A stretch of DNA of 64,000 nucleotides from Oscillospiraceae bacterium (GTDB lineage Bacteria; Bacillota; Clostridia; Oscillospirales; Acutalibacteraceae): assembly GCA_031551635.1 (NCBI GenBank), contig JAVBNH010000006.1, positions 11,208-75,207 on the forward strand, given 5' to 3'. Numbering within the stretch: the stretch's first letter is position 1; the number at the start of each line of letters is the position of its first letter. Of the stretch, positions 1,372 through 62,190 are shown one piece after another. The notes under the pieces were generated by a model, which did not search any database, had not been told where the DNA came from, and was given only the letters and a program-made list of their open reading frames with translations. The position numbers and the translations under genes are program-made.

Positions 1372-1400
1372 GAGTAAAAACAAAAATATCGCTATTATTT

Positions 1401-1476
1401 TAGTACCTTAGTGGGCTGAAAGCTCAATAAAAACACGACTTGGGTTGTGGGCTTGGCAAGCCAAGCCCACGTTAGT
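1401..1476 (-). repeat. ~75-bp palindromic intergenic element, copy 1
   Basis: The reverse complement matches the consensus CTAACGTGGGCTTGGCTTGCCAAGCCCACAACCCAAGTCGTGTTTTTTATTGAGCTTTCAGCCCACTAAGGTACTAA. Confidence 0.9.
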
Positions 1477-6657: not shown

Positions 6658-6664
6658 TAATATT

Positions 6665-6730
6665 TAACATGGCTTGGCTTGCCAAGCCCACAACCCCAGT
6701 CGTGTTTTTATTGAGCATTCAGCCCAATAA
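6665..6730 (+). repeat. ~75-bp palindromic intergenic element, copy 2 (5' arm degenerate)
   Basis: taacatggcttggcttgccaagcccacaaccccagtcgtgtttttattgagcattcagcccaataa. Confidence 0.85.
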
Positions 6731-6790
6731 TATACTATATAAATATATGCGGCGAAAAGCCTTTTTTGCTAACTATTTATCACACCGGCG

Positions 6791-28618: not shown

Positions 28619-28657
28619 ATGCTATCAAGCCTTTCATTAATATTTAAATGATACATT

Positions 28658-28685
28658 ATCTACAATCTAATGTCTAATATCTAAA
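28658..28685 (-). repeat. heptamer array, minus-sense TAGATAT TAGACAT TAGATTG TAGAT
   Basis: Covers the last codons and the TAG stop of the P-loop NTPase gene. Confidence 0.85.
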
Positions 28686-32551: not shown

Positions 32552-32779
32552 GAAGAGGTCGCGTATTTATCGCTATTTGGAAATAAAATTATAGCTCGCG
32601 TGGTGATTATATACTGATCCGCATTAAAATAGCTTCTAACTGTCGTTCGCTAATCCTTTTGCACTCTTACAAAAGGGCTCACTCCATTAGAAGCTTTTTA
32701 ATGGAGGATAAGTATTAATATAATTGTCCGCGTCCAGAGAGTTTAATTAAAAGTTAATGCTGAATCGCGACATCTTCCA

Positions 32780-32807
32780 ATATCTAATATCTAAAATCTA
32801 ATATCTA
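32780..32807 (-). repeat. heptamer array, minus-sense (TAGATAT TAGATTT TAGATAT TAGATAT)
   Basis: The first TAG is the stop codon of CDS 32805..34058. Confidence 0.9.
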
Positions 32808-34058
32808 AAACAGCGCATTTTCTCCCGCGATAAAGCCGGTTGAAAAGGCTATTTGTAAATTAAACCCGCCGGTATAGGCATTGACGTCTATGACCTCCCC
32901 CGCGAAAAAGAGATTGGCGCATTTTTTCGAGCGCATGGTTTTCGGCTCGATTTCGCCGACACTCACCCCTCCGCAGGTGATAATCGCCTCTTCAATCGGG
33001 CGGAAGGCACGCACATTCAGCTTTAATTCCTTCAGACACATAACAAATTCCGCACGCATCTCACGCGTGAGTTGATTAGCCTTCATCTCATGAGGAATTC
33101 CGCACAAATCGAGAATTACCGGAATCATCGCCCGGGGCAGCAGCTCATTAAAAGCGTTTACGGCAGCTTTATTAGAGTATTTCGCAATATCACGCTGTAT
33201 TCGGCTGTCAAGCTGAGTGACACTCAGCCCCGGTTTCAAATCAATAACTATCTCGTATTTTGTCTTGTCAGCATCCCGCATATGCGCGCTGGCGCTGAGT
33301 ATCACAGGACCCGATACACCGAAATGGGTAAAAAGCATCTCGCCGAAATCCTCATAAATATCTGCGAAGCCGTCCTTATCACGAAGCTTAAGCGAAACAT
33401 TTTTCAGTGCAAGTCCCTGAAGCTCTGCGCAGAAGCTTTCGGCGGTTTCAAGAGGTACAAGCGATGCCTGCGGCTGTGTAACTGTATGCCCAGCCTGTTT
33501 TGCGAGCTCATAGCCGTCGCCGGTTGAACCGGTCAGGGGATAGGACACGCCGCCTGTCGCGACTACAAAGGACGAGGCAAAAAACTCCTCACCTTCATAT
33601 GTTCTGACTCCTGTAATCAGCGGTGTTTCGTTATTCTCATTAAAAATGAATTCTTTAACGCGTCCGGCAATTCGTTTTACACCGCTTTTCTTCATAAAGC
33701 CGCCCAGCGCGTCAACAATATCAACAGCCTTGTCCGAGACCGGAAAAACCCTGTTACCCCGCTCGACTTTGAGCGGAACTCCCAGCTCTTCGAAAAAATC
33801 CATGGTATCCGAGGGCATAAAACGCGAAAACGCGCTGTAGAGAAAGCGTCCGTTTGTGGGCACGGCTTCGATAAGCTCATTGAGCATGGAGCAGGCATTG
33901 GTCACATTGCAGCGCCCCTTGCCCGTAATCATCAGCTTGCGCCCGACGCGCTCGTTGCGCTCGATTACAAGCACGCTTTTGCCTCTTTCGGCAAGCTTCC
34001 CCGCGCACATCATGCCCGCCGCTCCCGCGCCAATTACAATACAATCTGTTTTTTTCAT
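32805..34058 (-). CDS. HI0933/BaiN-like NAD(P)/FAD-dependent flavoprotein
   Basis: DCIVIGAGAAGMMCAG dinucleotide fold, 417 aa. The stop TAG is the first unit of a heptamer array. Confidence 0.8.
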   Translation of the reverse strand: MKKTDCIVIGAGAAGMMCAGKLAERGKSVLVIERNERVGRKLMITGKGRCNVTNACSMLNELIEAVPTNGRFLYSAFSRFMPSDTMDFFEELGVPLKVERGNRVFPVSDKAVDIVDALGGFMKKSGVKRIAGRVKEFIFNENNETPLITGVRTYEGEEFFASSFVVATGGVSYPLTGSTGDGYELAKQAGHTVTQPQASLVPLETAESFCAELQGLALKNVSLKLRDKDGFADIYEDFGEMLFTHFGVSGPVILSASAHMRDADKTKYEIVIDLKPGLSVTQLDSRIQRDIAKYSNKAAVNAFNELLPRAMIPVILDLCGIPHEMKANQLTREMRAEFVMCLKELKLNVRAFRPIEEAIITCGGVSVGEIEPKTMRSKKCANLFFAGEVIDVNAYTGGFNLQIAFSTGFIAGENALF

Positions 34059-43730: not shown

Positions 43731-43807
43731 TTAGTACCTTAGTAGGCTGAAAGCTCAACAAAAAACAAGACTTGGGTTGTGGGCTTGGCAAGCCAAGCCC
43801 ACGTTAG
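43731..43807 (-). repeat. ~75-bp palindromic intergenic element, copy 3
   Basis: Near-identical to copy 1 and in the same orientation. Confidence 0.9.
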
Positions 43808-54664: not shown

Positions 54665-57328
54665 TTAAATATGCTTGCTGATTTTGCTCAGAGTCTCATG
54701 CAGGTCAATCGGCTTGCCTATATGGTCGCTCATTCCCGCGTCCTTGCACTGCTCGATGTCTTCCTTGAAGGCGTTCGCGGTCATGGCAATAATCGGAATG
54801 GTTTTCGCTTTTTTAAAGTCAAGCGCCCGGATATACTTCGTTGCTTCAATACCATCCATCACCGGCATTTGAATATCCATGAGGATAATATCAAAATCGT
54901 CCGGATTTTTACTGAAAATCTGCAGAGCCTGCTCGCCGTTCTCGGCGCAGGTAATGTCAATGCCCGTATCCTCAAGCAATGTGGTCACTATCTCGCGGTT
55001 TATTTCGATATCCTCAGCCAGCAACAGCTTTCTACCTCTGAAATCGGTTACTGTTTTAACACTGTTTGCTGCGCCCTCATATATATCTGAGCCTTCCGGA
55101 GCCCGCTCAAGTAAAACAGAAAAGTAGAAGCGGCTGCCCTTGCCGATTTCACTCTTGACACCAACTGAACCGCCCATTAGCTCGACAATCCGCCTTGAAA
55201 TAGCAAGCCCCAGACCCGTTCCGCCAAAGCGGCGGGCTATGCTGCTCTCAGCCTGTTCAAAGGAATTGAAAAGCCTCGCCTGCTGCTCGGGTGAAATGCC
55301 GATACCGTTGTCGGTAATTTCGGCAAACAGCTCAACAGAATCGCCTTTTTGCCTTTGTGAGATTTTCAGTGAAACCGTGCCGCCGTCCGGCGTGAACTTC
55401 ACCGAATTTGACAAGAGATTGGTAAATACCTGAGACAGCCTCAGCTCGTCGCCTATGAAGCGGTAATCTTCGCCCTCATCGAGCGAAACGCTCAGGGCGA
55501 TATTTTTTTCCTCTGCTTTTACTGTTATGATGCTGACAATATTATCTATTGAGGCAGAGAGACTGAAGGGAGCGTTGACCAGCTCCAGCTTATTAGCCTC
55601 AATCTTTGACATATCAAGTATATCGTTTATAAGTCCCAGCAGATGCCTAGACGCATCGTCTATTTTACCCAGGCAATACTGCATTTTTTCACTGTCGCTG
55701 GTGCTCTGACCGATTTTTATCATACCGATAATCGCATTCATTGGTGTTCTGATTTCATGGCTCATCCTGGAAAGGAATTCGCTTTTTGCGTTATTTGCAG
55801 CTTCCGCCTGCTGCATAGCCAGCTCAAGCTTTTCCTCGTTCTTTTTTCTGTCAGTAATATCCGTATACATGCCTAAAAGAACCATCGGCTCGCCGTTGTC
55901 ATCTGACAACAGTATTTTGCTGGTGCTCAGCCATAATTCCTCACCCTCAGGAGTTTGCAGCGGTTCTTCAAAAAACAGAACATCCTGCCGTGTCTCAAAT
56001 ATATTTCTGTCGTTTTCTGTATATGCGTCGGCGATTTCCTTCTTATAAAGGTCATAATCGTTTTTGCCAATCAAATCATCCGGATTTTCTATATTAGCGT
56101 CACGGGCAAAGCGGCTGTTTGCTCCGAGGAAAATTGAATTTTTGTCCTTCCAGAAAATTCCGCTCGGTACAGTGTCAATAATTTTTCTCAGCATCAGCTG
56201 CGCTTCGTTGAGGATTCGGTCTGCCTCAATTTTTTCACGCATATCCCTCATGACTGTCGCCATGCCCATTATTTCCATTTTTTTATTATGAACAGGAAAA
56301 ACGGTCTGTTCAATGGGAATTATGCTTCCGTCACGCCTCTTCAGTTCTCCCATAGAAGTCCATGTACCGTCTCTGAGCGCAGCCGGCAAGCCAATTTCAA
56401 TGATTTTTTTAGCGTATTCGTCTGTATGAACATTGCTGATTGTAACAAACGGGTATTCGCTCGGGTCGTTATACCCAAGCATACGGTAAGCGCCGGGGCT
56501 TACATATATCAGATTATTATCCATATCACACACGGCGATATAGTCGTTGATACTCTCCATAATCGCCAGCTGCCACTGGTACATATCCGTCATTTTTTTC
56601 TCTTCGGTAATATCCTCGCAAATAGTCGCAAGCGCGACTATTTCCTTGTTCTCATTAAGAACAGGGAAGGCTGTCTGGCGAACCGGAATCTGACTGCCTG
56701 ATTTTCTCAGCAGCGTGGTTTCGCACTTCCAGGTCTGTCCGGACATAATGACAGGGAAGCATTCATTTTTTATAAACTCAAATTTTTCAGGAGTATGCAG
56801 ACAGGAAAGACCAAGCTCATAAATTTCCTCAATAGGCCTCTCGCAAGTAACAGCCATCGCTTCGTTAACAAATATAATATTCCCCTGAAGGTCAAGAGCT
56901 CCGAGCATGGTTGTTGAAGAGTTTATAAAAGCCGCCTGAAGCTTCAGTATCGCATCCTGCTCTTCGTTCTGCTTTTTCAGCTTATATTCCTCAGTGACAT
57001 CAACAAGAATGCTTAGACGCGCGTTTTTGCTTTCCGGCAAATTAACAATGCTCTCATAAGCGTCAAAATATCTGTCATGCGACGGGTTATACCTTCCCTT
57101 TGTCACTGTACAATCCCCGATATCTCTGAGTTTTTCGCCCGACACGCAATCCTTGCAAACATCACTTGAGCCGCAGACAGCGTTATAGCATTTTGCGCCA
57201 ACAAGGTCGCCAAAAAATAATGAGGCAGCTTTATTCTCGTAAAGAACATCATATGTTTCCAAATCGGAAATATATAACGGAATAGCTATATTGTCATATG
57301 CCGAAAAGAAACAGTTTTGTGACTGCAC
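54665..57328 (-). CDS. hybrid sensor histidine kinase/response regulator with multiple PAS domains
   Basis: H-box [15 protein letters not shown]2 box [10 protein letters not shown] and [13 protein letters not shown]...[12 protein letters not shown]. Cys-rich N-terminal domain. Confidence 0.9.
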
Positions 57329-57343
57329 GCTTATACCCCTTCT

Positions 57344-57420
57344 CTAACGTTGGTAGGGCTTTGCCCTGCCCACAACCTAAGTCTTGTTTTTATTGAGCTT
57401 TCAGCCCACTAAGGTACTAA
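57344..57420 (+). repeat. ~75-bp palindromic intergenic element, copy 4 (variant first hairpin AGGGC-TTT-GCCCT)
   Basis: ctaacgttggtagggctttgccctgcccacaacctaagtcttgtttttattgagctttcagcccactaaggtactaa. Confidence 0.8.
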
Positions 57421-58487: not shown

Positions 58488-58709
58488 CTAATGTGGGTTT
58501 GGCTTGCCAAGCCCACAACCCAAGTCGTGTCTTTTATTGAGCATTCGGCTCAATAAGGTACTAATGTGGGTTTGGCTTGCCAAGCCCACAACCCAAGTCG
58601 TGTTTTTTATTGAGCATTCGGCTCAATAAGGTACTAACGTGGGCTTGGCTTACCAAGCCCACAACCCAAGACTTGTTTTTTATTGAGCTTTCAGATCATT
58701 AAGGTATTA
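58488..58709 (+). repeat. three head-to-tail copies (73-76 bp each) of the palindromic element
   Basis: Units at 58488..58560, 58561..58633 and 58634..58709. The first two differ at a single position. Confidence 0.95.
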
Positions 58710-58767
58710 TTACAATTACTATTTTTCTATTTATTTTTCTTATTTCGCGTTTATTTCATAAATCTAA

Positions 58768-60929: not shown

Positions 60930-61015
60930 CTAACGTGGGCTTGGCTTGCCAAGCCCACAACCCAAGTAGTGTTTTTTATTGAGCTTTCAGCCCATTAAGG
61001 TACTAAAGGTACTAA
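60930..61015 (+). repeat. ~75-bp palindromic intergenic element, copy 8, with duplicated AGGTACTAA end
   Basis: ctaacgtgggcttggcttgccaagcccacaacccaagtagtgttttttattgagctttcagcccattaaggtactaaaggtactaa. The stop of the FIST-like CDS lies in the duplicated end. Confidence 0.9.
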
Positions 61016-62190
61016 AAAATACAGGTGACGAAGGTGTAATTATGAAAACGGTTGATAGCCTTATTGTCAGTGCTTGAAGTCGGACAAATCTCGCCGCTCG
61101 AGTATGAGAGCATAAAATTAACATCGCTGCCAATAACCTCTGAAGCCATTTCAACCTCGAGCATAGGCTCGCCGCCCAGAGACAGCCGCCGCCCGAGGCA
61201 GGAAAACATCAGCACATTTTTACCCTTGCAGGTCGCGGAAATATTTTCAAGGACAGTTCTTGTTGTCTTTAAAACATCGTTTTTGTCGCATACACCGACA
61301 GTAATGCTCGAGCCAACAGGCATTTCACCGCCGCAAATCGCATAATTATCTATTGTGGTCATAAAAAGCGCGCGGGCAATCGGGATTCCGTCCCGTCCGG
61401 ATTCATTGCCGAAGCTTATAAGGAAGGGAATCGAGCTGATACCGCTGCGGATTTTTCCGCCGTGCGCGAGACCGATAGTCTCAAGATAATCAACCGCAGC
61501 CATGTCATTGATGCCCATGAGAATATTAGCATCTGATTTTGTAATTTCACCTTTATAAGGCAGCTGTGACTCACTCGAGACGGAAATAATTTTGAACTCC
61601 GGCTCAACTTCTCCCGAAATGAGAATAAAAGTCATTCTGTCTCTGTACGCTTTATCCCTATAGATGGTGTGTGAATTTGAATAGGTGTCCGGCTGGTCGT
61701 CGGCGCAAATCGAGCCGAAAACAGGAGCATGCGAGGAGAGTGACGAGAGAATATTGACATATTCGTCGCCGGGCTGGGCGTTCAGCAGCGGCGGAAAGGC
61801 GAAAATAAGGCTAACCTTCTCGCCGAGTTTTTCGGCGGCGGCATTGTATTCGTTTTCGATAGCTCCGCGCATATCACCCTTTTGCGGGATAACCCCGCTC
61901 AGCGCGCCGCAAAAGCTGCAGTCATCGGAATAAAGAACCATCATAGTGAGCACAATCAGCCCTGAGGAACCGCTGACAGCCTGAGATATTGTAGTTTCAC
62001 CGATTATATCAAAGGGCAGAGCCTCCTGCAGCGCATTAATAACACCAAGCTCGATAAAATCATAGGAGCAGGTGACTATTCCAATCATTTTTTCATTGAG
62101 AGTCAGCCCCTGCAGCTGAGAGAGTATATCCTCAACAGCCGCCGACAAATCATCCAGCTCATAAGTAAACGCGGTTTTTGACTTAATCAT
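61012..62190 (-). CDS. FIST-domain-like sensory protein (tentative)
   Basis: About 392 aa, cytoplasmic, adjacent to the kinases. The assignment rests on overall resemblance only. Start moved to ATG 62190 (SD GGGGGG), because the track start at 62223 lies inside a heptamer array. Confidence 0.4.
   Translation of the reverse strand: MIKSKTAFTYELDDLSAAVEDILSQLQGLTLNEKMIGIVTCSYDFIELGVINALQEALPFDIIGETTISQAVSGSSGLIVLTMMVLYSDDCSFCGALSGVIPQKGDMRGAIENEYNAAAEKLGEKVSLIFAFPPLLNAQPGDEYVNILSSLSSHAPVFGSICADDQPDTYSNSHTIYRDKAYRDRMTFILISGEVEPEFKIISVSSESQLPYKGEITKSDANILMGINDMAAVDYLETIGLAHGGKIRSGISSIPFLISFGNESGRDGIPIARALFMTTIDNYAICGGEMPVGSSITVGVCDKNDVLKTTRTVLENISATCKGKNVLMFSCLGRRLSLGGEPMLEVEMASEVIGSDVNFMLSYSSGEICPTSSTDNKAINRFHNYTFVTCIF

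What the first reader, a model, noticed from the sequence alone, without database searches (positions are those of the whole stretch)
58488..58709. Tandem triplet of a ~75-bp palindromic element that occurs 8 times in this window (MITE/REP/BOX-like family)
- Consensus: CTAACGTGGGCTTGGCTTGCCAAGCCCACAACCCAAGTCGTGTTTTTTATTGAGCTTTCAGCCCACTAAGGTACTAA.
- Copies lie at 1401..1476 (reverse), 6665..6730, 43731..43807 (reverse), 57344..57420, 58488..58709 (three head-to-tail units of 73-76 bp) and 60930..61015.
- Hairpin 1 is near-perfect: GTGGGCTTGGC-TT-GCCAAGCCCAC.
- Hairpin 2 (TTATTGAGC-ATTCG-GCTCAATAA) is perfect in the two most similar tandem units and imperfect elsewhere.
- GCCCAC occurs twice, so the 5' GTGGGC has two alternative partners.
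- The ends resemble short terminal inverted repeats (CTAACGTGGGC / GCCCACTAAGG).
- All copies are intergenic, and none carries an ORF apart from artefactual ones.
- Eight copies in 64 kb is a high density, and the modular tandem arrangement resembles pneumococcal BOX or enterobacterial BIME organisation.
- I do not recognise the sequence as a described family.
Basis: seen in the sequence. Interest (0 to 1): 0.6.

Follow-up and report, generated by a model that had tools for sequence, protein, structure and literature searches.

The report
Self-targeting hairpin mini-transposon, CTAA-specific
The tandem triplet is three copies of a 73-base non-coding mobile DNA element that always inserts in one orientation right after the four bases CTAA. 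The element ends in CTAA itself, so it stacks head-to-tail. It is an undescribed family of a familiar class, present about 214 times in this genome and in scattered bacteria of several phyla.

Summary
**Observation.** It is confirmed: there are 8 copies in the window, including a period-73 triplet at 58488-58710. A genome-wide nhmmer search gives 243 hits (about 214 full-length copies at 214 loci) in the 2.95 Mb draft genome.

**What it is.** It is a non-autonomous mobile element.
- Seven copies sit inside members of other repeat families. The unoccupied paralogs show a single CTAA exactly at the junction.
- Of 17 head-to-tail pairs, 13 share the terminal CTAA and 4 are nested behind a host copy's internal CTAA.
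- All 17 are co-oriented. Fourteen are no more alike than random pairs, so they are independent insertions.
- The element re-creates its own target, which explains the tandems. In the triplet, units 1-2 are a local duplication and unit 3 is a separate insertion.

**Distribution.**
- A related family is in another Oscillospiraceae genus, with the same tips and T-run but different hairpin-stem sequences.
- The conserved right-end core recurs in multiple copies in MAGs labelled Clostridia, Peptococcaceae, Moorella, Brocadiaceae, Myxococcota and Desulfocapsa.
- It occurs in only about 3 of 400 sampled genomes of the window's own phylum.
- It is not in Rfam, plasmids, viral contigs or the searchable literature.

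**Mechanism.** The most likely mechanism is single-strand, HUH (IS200/IS605- or REP-like) transposition in trans, but no cognate transposase was found. The only Y1 gene in this genome is a pseudogene of a family that carries different flanking repeats in three related genomes.

**Verdict.** It is a new member of a known kind, of moderate interest.

The parts
58488..58564 (+). Tandem unit 1. The target CTAA is at 58488-58491, followed by the 73-nt mobile unit at 58492-58564, which ends in CTAA. It carries the variant with a perfect hairpin 2 (TTATTGAGC-ATTCG-GCTCAATAA).
58565..58637 (+). Tandem unit 2, 73 nt. It is 98.7% identical to unit 1 and shares that unit's CGGCTCAATAA variant. That variant was seen nowhere else among the copies listed genome-wide, so units 1-2 are a local duplication or a next-door re-insertion.
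58638..58710 (+). Tandem unit 3, 73 nt. It is 86-87% identical to units 1-2, which is no closer than random copy pairs, and its 3' tip has decayed (GGTATTAT). It is an independent insertion at the shared CTAA.
57344..57420 (+). Solo copy between the hybrid kinase gene (54665-57328, minus strand) and the radical SAM gene. Hairpin 1 has a different stem sequence (GGTAGGGC-TTT-GCCCTGCC).
60930..61015 (+). Solo copy at 60930-61006, followed by a 9-nt duplicate of its tail (AGGTACTAA, 61007-61015).
1399..1475 (-). Solo copy in reverse orientation, lying between two minus-strand genes.
6664..6738 (+). Decayed solo copy whose tips have become TTAAC and TATACTAT.
43731..43807 (-). Solo copy in a gap between convergent genes.

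Best explanation
**Shown**
- The repeat is a non-autonomous transposable element. Its mobile unit is 73 nt: CGTGGGC...hairpin 1...AACCCAAG...T-run...hairpin 2...GGTACTAA.
- It lands in one fixed orientation immediately 3' of the tetranucleotide 5'-CTAA-3'.
- The unit itself ends in CTAA and also holds an internal CTAA. Every resident copy therefore offers new targets, which produces head-to-tail arrays that share one CTAA, and nested copies.
- The triplet in the window is two such insertion events plus one local duplication.

**Inferred**
- The element is moved in trans, as single-stranded DNA, by an HUH-type tyrosine transposase of the IS200/IS605 or REP-associated kind.
- That enzyme would recognise the two subterminal hairpins and cut at the CTAA tags.
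- The enzyme is not identified.
- In this genome the family looks old and probably no longer active: mean identity to consensus is 92.6% and mutations are one-sided.
For: **Copy number and boundaries**
- About 214 full copies have sharp boundaries, and the flanks are at background composition.

**Empty sites**
- Seven copies interrupt members of other repeat families.
- Unoccupied paralogs are contiguous across the junction and carry one CTAA there.

**Tandem and nested pairs**
- There are 17 tandem or nested pairs, all co-oriented. Thirteen share the terminal CTAA.
- In 4 pairs the guest follows the host's internal ...GCCCACTAA, and the host's last 8 nt (GGTACTAA) reappear after the guest.
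- Fourteen of the 17 pairs are no more alike than random pairs.
- About 3100 intergenic CTAA/TTAG sites exist, which predicts roughly 7% of insertions landing in or beside earlier copies. The observed figure is 17 of about 214.

**Tags are not a target duplication**
- The left tag is always CTAA and never TTAG in element orientation.
- In Clostridiaceae 8_bin.75 the left tag is mostly CCAA while the right tag is CTAA.

**Conservation across genomes**
- The tips CYAAN / TACTAA and the T-run are conserved, while the hairpin stems change.
- Hairpin 1: 95% of cells are paired and 4 of 6 pairs change on both sides, against 27-47% paired in slid controls.
- Hairpin 2: 77% paired against 34-56% in slid controls.
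- The right linker is 8 nt, as in IS200/IS605 (PMC3597680).

**Placement and decay**
- Copy density per intergenic kb is similar in convergent, divergent and co-directional gaps.
- Within the genome, changes in the stems are one-sided, which indicates decay after insertion rather than selection at each site.
Against: **No cognate transposase**
- The only PF01797 hit in the genome is a multiply broken pseudogene.
- Its intact relatives in three related genomes (G116, G051, G067) and in Clostridiaceae 8_bin.75 are flanked by GGGGACGGTTCTC-type repeats. That motif is absent from this genome.
- There is no TnpB.
- There is no Y2 transposase hit, although the control for that search was silent.
- In 14 other genomes that bear the element, Y1 genes are common (11 of 14). 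They are not flanked by the element's ends, except in two ambiguous cases.

**Architecture does not fully fit**
- The left tag sits 1 nt from the hairpin foot, whereas IS200/IS605 left linkers are 15-16 nt.

**Strand bias is weak**
- After correcting for where free CTAA sites lie, the bias against the G-rich strand is 60% observed versus 53% expected (p=0.07).
- The antisense bias in co-directional gaps is 66% versus 55% (p=0.015).
- The direction is not the one expected for the strand carrying 5'-CTAA.

**Ambiguity**
- Within this genome alone, a 4-bp CTAA target duplication gives the same sequences.
Confidence: 0.55

Rival explanations
1. It is a classical MITE moved by a DDE transposase (IS5- or IS701-like), which duplicates a 4-bp CTAA target (YTAR-type).
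For: - Empty sites hold one CTAA and occupied sites hold two.
- Three IS4-type DDE genes exist in the genome.
- In the Myxococcota, Desulfocapsa and Gracilibacteraceae relatives, the left end is an inverted copy of the right tip, which is TIR-like.
Against: - Orientation relative to the non-palindromic CTAA is fixed in about 200 copies and in all 17 self-insertions. TTAG...TTAG flanks are never seen.
- There are no terminal inverted repeats in this genome.
- The left and right tags differ in Clostridiaceae 8_bin.75, CCAA versus CTAA.
- The TIRs of the resident IS4-like elements are unrelated to the element's ends.
Confidence: 0.12
2. It is a small circle integrated by a site-specific (tyrosine or serine, integron-like) recombinase. 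Strand exchange would occur within an asymmetric CTAA core shared by the element junction (GGTA-CTAA-CGTG) and the target.
For: - An asymmetric core would explain the fixed orientation, the single core in empty sites and the shared core in tandems.
- Four hairpin-1-only derivatives read CTAAC-stem-GTTAG, which recalls the inverse-core and core boxes of attC sites.
- The replication-strand bias is weak.
Against: - No recombinase gene is linked to any of 80 loci examined in other genomes. The eight long upstream ORFs with clear identities were housekeeping genes.
- Hundreds of dispersed insertions at a 4-nt site are unlike known recombinase targets.
- The copies are not arranged as cassette arrays.
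- No integron integrase search was run.
Confidence: 0.13
3. It is primarily a functional RNA or DNA signal (terminator, mRNA stabiliser, small RNA or protein-binding site) kept by selection at each site.
For: - It has two stable hairpins.
- There is a mild excess of the antisense orientation in co-directional gaps.
- The right-end core is strongly conserved across phyla.
Against: - Neither strand has a hairpin directly followed by a U-run, and the terminator scan does not call any copy.
- Copies lie equally in divergent, convergent and co-directional gaps.
- Within-genome changes break the stems on one side, with little compensation.
- Only the ends are conserved across genomes, while the middle is free to vary. 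That is the pattern of cis-acting transposon ends.
- There is no Rfam match.
Confidence: 0.05

Closest known systems
IS200/IS605-family ends and their gene-less derivatives (PATEs), moved by the Y1 HUH transposase TnpA (IS608, ISDra2)
   Same: - The ends are asymmetric, with a subterminal imperfect hairpin at each end instead of inverted repeats.
- Insertion is in a fixed orientation 3' of a specific tetranucleotide.
- The right tip lies 8 nt beyond the hairpin foot.
- The left (target) and right tags can differ.
   Different: - The left tag abuts the hairpin (1 nt), whereas these families have a 15-16 nt left linker.
- The right tip equals the target, so the element targets itself.
- No TnpA or TnpB gene with these ends was found in any genome examined.
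- Replication-strand bias is weak.
REP / REPIN elements with RAYT (TnpA_REP), including the GTAG- and CGTC-tagged families (Nunvar 2010; Bertels & Rainey 2011; Di Nocera 2013, PMC3733652)
   Same: - The copies are numerous, extragenic and hairpin-forming, with a conserved short tag right next to the stem.
- Hairpin-only and inverted-doublet derivatives exist.
- The proposed mobilisation is in trans by a single-copy Y1 enzyme.
   Different: - The tag is CTAAC, not GTAG or CGTC.
- The unit is 73-77 nt with two different hairpins.
- Clusters are strictly head-to-tail, unlike BIMEs, which alternate.
- No RAYT gene is flanked by the repeat.
- The hosts carry MAG labels of Clostridia, Planctomycetota, Myxococcota and Desulfobacterota lineages rather than Gammaproteobacteria.
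TIRYT / TIRtron (Y1 transposase genes flanked by GGGG-tipped inverted repeats; PMC3733652)
   Same: - This genome's only Y1 gene (C19:44-685) belongs to a Y1-plus-C-terminal-HTH group.
- Intact members of that group in relatives are bracketed by inverted GGGGACGGTTCTC repeats.
   Different: - That motif is unrelated to the 73-nt element and is absent from this genome.
- The gene here is a victim of insertions, not an evident driver.
Gram-positive and Neisseria MITEs: pneumococcal BOX and RUP, Correia elements
   Same: They are small, non-coding, structured and dispersed intergenic repeats, with occasional clusters.
   Different: - BOX is built from boxA-(boxB)n-boxC modules.
- RUP and Correia elements have inverted repeats and TA duplications, and insert in either orientation.
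- None of these features is seen here.
IS91 / ISCR rolling-circle (Y2 HUH) elements
   Same: They insert next to a specific tetranucleotide in a fixed orientation, make no target duplication, and have ends with hairpins.
   Different: - Their target is GTTC/CTTG.
- No Y2 gene was detected, although the control for that search was silent.
- I am not aware of a miniature high-copy derivative of this type; that rests on my own knowledge, not on a search.

Membership tests
IS200/IS605-derived non-autonomous element (PATE) | Subterminal imperfect hairpins at both ends instead of terminal inverted repeats | tested here: met
   - Folding gives two hairpins.
- Across genomes the stems change while pairing is kept.
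- The termini CTAAC... and ...GGTACTAA are not inverted repeats.
IS200/IS605-derived non-autonomous element (PATE) | Insertion 3' of a specific tetra- or pentanucleotide, in one orientation | tested here: met
   - Paralogous empty sites carry one CTAA at the junction.
- All 17 self-insertions are co-oriented behind a CTAA.
- The left tag is CTAA in 194-205 of 214 copies.
IS200/IS605-derived non-autonomous element (PATE) | No target-site duplication | tested here: inconclusive
   - In this genome a 4-bp CTAA duplication would look identical.
- In Clostridiaceae 8_bin.75 the left tag (mostly CCAA) differs from the right tag (CTAA), which argues against a duplication.
IS200/IS605-derived non-autonomous element (PATE) | Linker asymmetry: left cleavage site 15-16 nt from the hairpin foot, right about 8 nt (PMC3597680) | tested here: not met
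   The right linker is 8 nt (GGTACTAA) and fits. On the left, only 1 nt separates CTAA from the hairpin 1 foot.
IS200/IS605-derived non-autonomous element (PATE) | An autonomous relative: a Y1 tnpA (with or without tnpB) bracketed by the same ends | tested here: not met
   - The own genome has one Y1 pseudogene without these ends and no TnpB.
- No left-end-only and right-end-only partial copy lie in the right order on one contig to bracket a longer element (my reading of the partial-hit list).
- In 14 other bearing genomes, the Y1 loci lack the ends.
IS200/IS605-derived non-autonomous element (PATE) | Orientation bias tied to the lagging-strand template | tested here: inconclusive
   The strand bias is 60% against 53% expected from free CTAA sites (p=0.07). 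The genome is a draft, and the leading strand was inferred from local GC skew only.
REP / RAYT system | A single 20-40 nt imperfect palindrome tagged GTAG or CGTC | tested here: not met
   The unit is 73-77 nt with two different hairpins, and the tag is CTAAC (definition from PMC3733652).
REP / RAYT system | A RAYT gene flanked by the repeat (REPtron) | tested here: not met
   - The Y1 pseudogene scores 22.9 bits against the NCBIfam RayT model, whose cut-off is 80.
- Its relatives are flanked by a different repeat.
REP / RAYT system | Clusters with alternating orientation (BIME) | tested here: not met
   All adjacent pairs are head-to-tail. No abutting head-to-head or tail-to-tail pair occurs, and only one opposed pair lies within 300 nt, 192 nt apart on contig C12.
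DDE-type MITE | Terminal inverted repeats matching a resident IS, and a target duplication independent of orientation | tested here: not met
   - There are no TIRs in this genome.
- The ends of the IS4-like elements are unrelated.
- Orientation relative to CTAA is fixed.
Pneumococcal BOX | Modular boxA-(boxB)n-boxC build | tested here: not met
   Arrays repeat the whole 73-nt unit, and no sub-module is amplified.
Integron attC site | Inverse-core and core boxes around a folded palindrome, lying in cassette arrays next to intI | not tested
   - Only a resemblance was noted: CTAAC...GTTAG in four hairpin-1-only derivatives.
- The copies lie between housekeeping genes in both gene orientations.
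- No intI search was run.
Any Rfam RNA family | A match at the family's gathering score | tested here: not met
   There were no element matches in the window or in 17 loci from other genomes. Matches below the gathering score were noise.

The most novel reading that the evidence does not exclude
The family is an orphan, cross-phylum set of single-strand mini-transposons. Its ends are CYAA-N-GYGGGC...GCCCRC-AACCCAA on the left and TTGTTTTTTATTG-hairpin-TAAGGTACTAA on the right.

In the most novel reading, these ends are recognised by an enzyme not yet recognised as a transposase, or by a new HUH branch with a tag-adjacent left hairpin. That enzyme would have spread horizontally among anaerobes of Bacillota, Planctomycetota, Myxococcota and Desulfobacterota. 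The element's self-matching target would make it a natural generator of head-to-tail arrays.
Probability: 0.25. Interest if true: 0.7.

Novelty: new member of a known kind. Interest (0 to 1): 0.5.

Why it matters
- **A well-documented target rule.** This gives a hairpin-ended miniature element a precise, testable rule: insert 3' of CTAA, in one orientation. The rule rests on natural empty sites and nested copies, not on analogy.
- **A simple explanation for tandem arrays.** It shows how head-to-tail arrays of such repeats arise, because the element ends in its own target.
- **A defined substrate for finding the enzyme.** The same ends recur in distant phyla with no recognisable partner gene. 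The two short conserved end sequences can therefore be used as bait, both computationally and biochemically, to find the enzyme that moves them.
- **Practical use for annotation.** The roughly 214 copies explain spurious ORFs, some contig breaks (several contigs end inside a copy), and the repeat-filled gaps of the 54.6-62.2 kb signalling cluster.

Tried and rejected

No RNA-seq evidence and no read-level insertion polymorphism could be obtained.
- Strain-level empty sites were not available. The neighbouring radical SAM protein is not on record elsewhere. Its nearest homolog is only 55% identical.
- An exact 24-mer scan of genome contigs found nothing, because the own genome is withheld.
- A 19-mer scan of metagenome contigs gave 7 chance hits in unrelated contigs.
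- Viral contigs and plasmids gave no match.
- Rfam gave nothing, in both gathering and E-value modes.
- A literature search for the conserved strings and for CTAA with IS200/IS605 found nothing relevant.

**Cognate transposase searches**
- The Y1 pseudogene was rejected as the evident driver.
- TnpB is absent.
- Y2 was not found, but the control was silent, so this is uninformative.
- The IS4-like elements have unrelated ends.
- Y1 loci of 14 other bearing genomes are not bracketed by the ends.
- Two adjacencies, in Desulfocapsa L162 and in 8_bin.75 L169, are best explained by those genes' own GGGG-tipped repeats plus chance.
- The eight long ORFs with clear identities just upstream of copies in other genomes are housekeeping genes.

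**Functional readings**
- Terminator and promoter readings were rejected by the scan.

**Which strand is the active one**
- In this genome hairpin 2 folds better on the reverse-complement strand, through a G.T wobble.
- Across genomes the common T.G pair favours the other strand.
- This is left unresolved.

**Orientation bias**
- A first, stronger-looking orientation bias shrank after correcting for the strand distribution of free CTAA sites.

Full report
**1. The observation**

The stretch 58488-58710 is a head-to-tail array of three units. Tandem Repeats Finder gives period 73, 3.0 copies, 93% matches and score 370. The hairpin-1 24-mer GTGGGCTTGGCTTGCCAAGCCCAC matches at seven of the eight copies within 3 mismatches, against none in 100 shuffles. 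All eight lie between long ORFs.

**2. A dispersed family**

The window is contig C26:11208-75207 of a 2.95 Mb, 45-contig draft genome with 43.5% G+C.
- A profile of the eight copies finds 243 hits, about 214 of them full length, at 214 loci on nearly all contigs. Several lie at contig ends.
- The consensus is CTAACGTGGGCTTGGCTTGCCAAGCCCACAACCCAAGTCTTGTTTTTTATTGAGCTTTCAGCCCACTAAGGTACTAA.
- Most columns are 80-99% conserved. The main exception is position 66, at 55%. Conservation drops to intergenic background immediately outside CTAA on the left and GGTACTAA on the right.
- Mean identity to the consensus is 92.6%, and mean identity between copy pairs is 87%.

**3. Structure**

Hairpin 1 is a 10-11 bp stem. 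Hairpin 2 is imperfect in the consensus and perfect only in tandem units 1-2. Within the genome, changes in the stems are almost all one-sided, with few compensatory pairs. Copies therefore decay after insertion, and the stems are not maintained at each site.

**4. Evidence that it is mobile, and its target rule**

(a) Tandem and nested pairs.
- There are 17 adjacent pairs. All are head-to-tail and none abuts in opposed orientation.
- In 13 pairs the two units share one CTAA.
- In 4 pairs (C3:193260, C29:7633, C31:8982, C11:99674) a complete guest copy follows the internal ...GCCCACTAA of a host copy. The host's last 8 nt, GGTACTAA, reappear right after the guest.
- Fourteen of the 17 pairs are no more alike than random pairs. 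Three are at least 98.7% identical, including window units 1-2.

(b) Paralogous empty sites.
- Seven solo copies interrupt members of other repeat families.
- When the two flanks are joined, they align without a gap to unoccupied paralogs, which carry a single CTAA exactly at the junction.
- The net gain is 73 nt.

(c) Orientation.
- In element orientation the left tag is CTAA in 194-205 of 214 copies, and never its complement.

(d) Target availability.
- There are about 3100 intergenic CTAA/TTAG sites, and each resident copy adds two in its own orientation.
- By my rough estimate, about 7% of insertions should then fall in or beside earlier copies. The observed number is 17 of about 214.

The element is therefore a transposable unit that inserts in one orientation behind CTAA and re-creates that target at its own 3' end. 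This accounts for the arrays. In the window triplet, units 1-2 share the variant CGGCTCAATAA, which I saw in no other listed copy. They are a local duplication or a next-door re-insertion. Unit 3 is a separate event.

**5. Placement and orientation**

Loci are about equally dense per intergenic kb in all three gap types: 0.71 in convergent gaps, 0.52 in divergent gaps and 0.57 in co-directional gaps. This is not what is expected of a terminator or a 3'-end stabiliser.

Raw orientation counts suggested a bias: 76 antisense against 39 sense in co-directional gaps, and 97 against 64 opposite to the G-rich strand. Free CTAA sites are themselves skewed the same way, at 54.8% and 52.8%. After that correction the biases are modest, with p=0.015 and p=0.07. 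The terminator and promoter scans do not call the copies.

**6. Relatives elsewhere**

*Near relatives.*
- BLAST of the consensus against 40 relatives found nothing. The genome is the only member of its genus in the collection.
- A covariance model run over 400 genomes of the same family found one other bearer, G095, from another genus.
- The model found 11 matches in G095 and the looser pattern found 10. The record title of the matching contig is Oscillospiraceae bacterium Kf353_bin46.
- Its element reads ACTAAC-GCGCTCTGCGGAGCGC-(AATTGAG)n-ATTATTGTTTTTTATTGGCGTTTTACGCCAATAAGCTACTAA. The tips and the T-run are the same, but both stems have different sequences.

*Across phyla.*
- The record titles name MAGs of Oscillospiraceae, Clostridiaceae, Peptococcaceae, Moorella, Gracilibacteraceae, Synergistaceae, Brocadiaceae, Myxococcota, Desulfocapsa, Kiritimatiellae and Verrucomicrobiota.
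- With a looser pattern, counts per genome are 5 to 105, against 0 for the reversed-pattern control in all 16 genomes.
- In a sample of 400 genomes of the window's phylum, only this genome (83), one other (4) and perhaps a third (1) carry it. The distribution is rare and patchy.

*Architecture across genomes.*
- The left end is C(C/T)AA-N-G(Y)GGGC-loop-GCCC(R)C-AACCCAA.
- The middle varies freely and often holds heptamer arrays.
- The right end is TTC-TTGTTTTTTATTG-hairpin-(A/G)TAAG(G/T)TACTAA.
- In the Myxococcota, Desulfocapsa and Gracilibacteraceae versions, the left end is instead an inverted copy of the right tip.
- The basal stem of hairpin 1 is paired in 95% of cells, with changes on both sides in 4 of 6 pairs, against 27-47% paired in slid controls.
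- Hairpin 2 is paired in 77% of cells, against 34-56% in slid controls, and its register varies between lineages.
- In Clostridiaceae 8_bin.75 the left tag is mostly CCAA while the right tag is CTAA, so the two tags are not a target duplication.
- Tandems in which a right end is followed directly by a left end also occur in Cd354_bin102 and in Peptococcaceae.

**7. The enzyme**

*In this genome.*
- There is one Y1_Tnp match, at C19:44-685.
- It is a pseudogene. It has no normal start codon, a 160-nt insert of another TIR-bearing repeat, a frameshift, and about 330 nt replaced by a hairpin-1-only palindrome (CTAACGTGGGCTTGGCAAGCCAAACCCACGTTAG).
- It passes the Pfam threshold (30.5 bits) but not the NCBIfam RayT cut-off (22.9 against 80).
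- Intact relatives in three genomes of the same family are bracketed by inverted GGGGACGGTTCTC repeats, which are absent from this genome. It is therefore not the evident driver.
- No TnpB was found.
- No Y2 transposase was found, but the control for that search was silent.
- Three IS4-like DDE genes have unrelated ends.

*In other bearing genomes.*
- Y1 genes occur in 11 of 14 bearing genomes that were tested.
- Their loci lack the element's ends, except in two cases. One is a TIRYT-like gene in a Desulfocapsa MAG that lies between two 235-nt direct repeats containing the element. The other is a copy 190 nt from a Y1+HTH gene in 8_bin.75. Both genes have their own GGGG-tipped repeats.
- G095 has no Y1 hit, although it is only 81% complete.
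- Of ten long ORFs ending just upstream of copies in other genomes, the eight with clear identities are housekeeping genes, by my reading of the translations.

**8. Mechanism**

The features shown are:
- hairpin-bearing asymmetric ends;
- a tetranucleotide target;
- a fixed orientation;
- tags that need not match each other;
- a right tip 8 nt beyond the hairpin foot.

These are the hallmarks of IS200/IS605 'peel and paste' single-strand transposition (PMC3597680). The tag-next-to-hairpin layout also recalls REP elements (PMC3733652). The points that do not fit are the 1-nt left linker, the missing enzyme and the weak strand bias.

I put 0.55 on the full statement, including HUH-type mobilisation in trans. 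I put about 0.9 on the shown part alone: a mobile, CTAA-specific, orientation-specific, self-targeting element. The rivals are a DDE MITE with a CTAA duplication (0.12), a site-specific recombinase with a CTAA core (0.13), and a primarily functional RNA or DNA signal (0.05).

**9. Known or new**

No Rfam family matches. There is no plasmid or viral match. No paper in the searchable library prints the conserved strings. The class is well known: small hairpin-ended non-autonomous elements. The family, its target rule and its distribution appear undescribed.

Noticed in passing
G000 contig C19:44-685 (outside the window): The genome's only Y1 (IS200-like/TIRYT-like, Y1 plus C-terminal HTH) transposase gene is a pseudogene at a contig start. 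It is broken by a 160-nt repeat insert, a frameshift, and a deletion now marked by a 34-nt hairpin-1-only palindrome of the element.
   Followed up: yes
G000 C19:234-395, with copies on C35, C10, C2, C39, C28, C33, C22 and C20 (outside the window): A second miniature repeat family of about 160 nt, with terminal inverted repeats TATTACCGCGCACGCAAACAGT. About 9 copies are 95-99% identical, and three lie at contig ends.
   Followed up: partly
G000 C15:56414-56517, C21:7729-7838, C10:46409-46512, C26:10794-10900 (about 300 nt before the window start) and at least 12 more: A third dispersed repeat family of about 105 nt (...CCTTTCAGTCGATAGCAAG...CCTAA ATTTGTTTTGCTTAAAAGGCACAAAACCTTTTGAA). It was found because one member, at C41:20123, hosts a copy of the element. 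It was not characterised further.
   Followed up: no
G000 C11:29029 and C12:21136; window heptamer arrays such as 28657-28684 and 32779-32808: - Two element copies sit at the same CTAA inside (TGTCTAA)n-type heptamer arrays.
- Such TAGAYNN/TRTCTAA arrays supply many CTAA targets.
- In other genomes the element's own middle part contains heptamer arrays: TATTCAG and GTGGTCAG in Peptococcaceae, AATTGAG in G095.
- This hints at a link between the two repeat types.
   Followed up: partly
window 60997-61016: The copy at 60930 carries a 9-nt duplicate of its tail (AGGTACTAA twice). Similar 3'-tail duplications occur in G095 (L029, L035). Their origin, by slippage or as remnants of nested copies, is not settled.
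   Followed up: partly
G000 C36:10603-10632, C12:43296-43326, C4:43388-43417; C26:3887-3919 and C34:118397-118427: Short derivatives of the element occur as perfect palindromes. Some are made of hairpin 1 only (CTAAC-stem-GTTAG) and some of hairpin 2 only (TAGTACCTTA-stem-TAAGGTACTA). They look like fold-back copies of one end.
   Followed up: partly
L162 (Desulfocapsa MAG TAG_MAG_00006, contig C208): A 329-aa Y1 transposase-like gene with a DnaA-C-like tail lies between two 235-nt direct repeats, each containing a copy of that genome's version of the element. GGGGTCAGG repeats sit at the gene's 3' side.
   Followed up: partly
G000 C1:34697-36112, C8:77733-79583, C39:30687-32537 (outside the window): Three IS4-type DDE transposase genes, two of them 617-aa paralogs. 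Their inverted repeats (ACCCGACTTTGCCACTT and ATAACTCAACTTTCGCACCCT) are unrelated to the element.
   Followed up: yes
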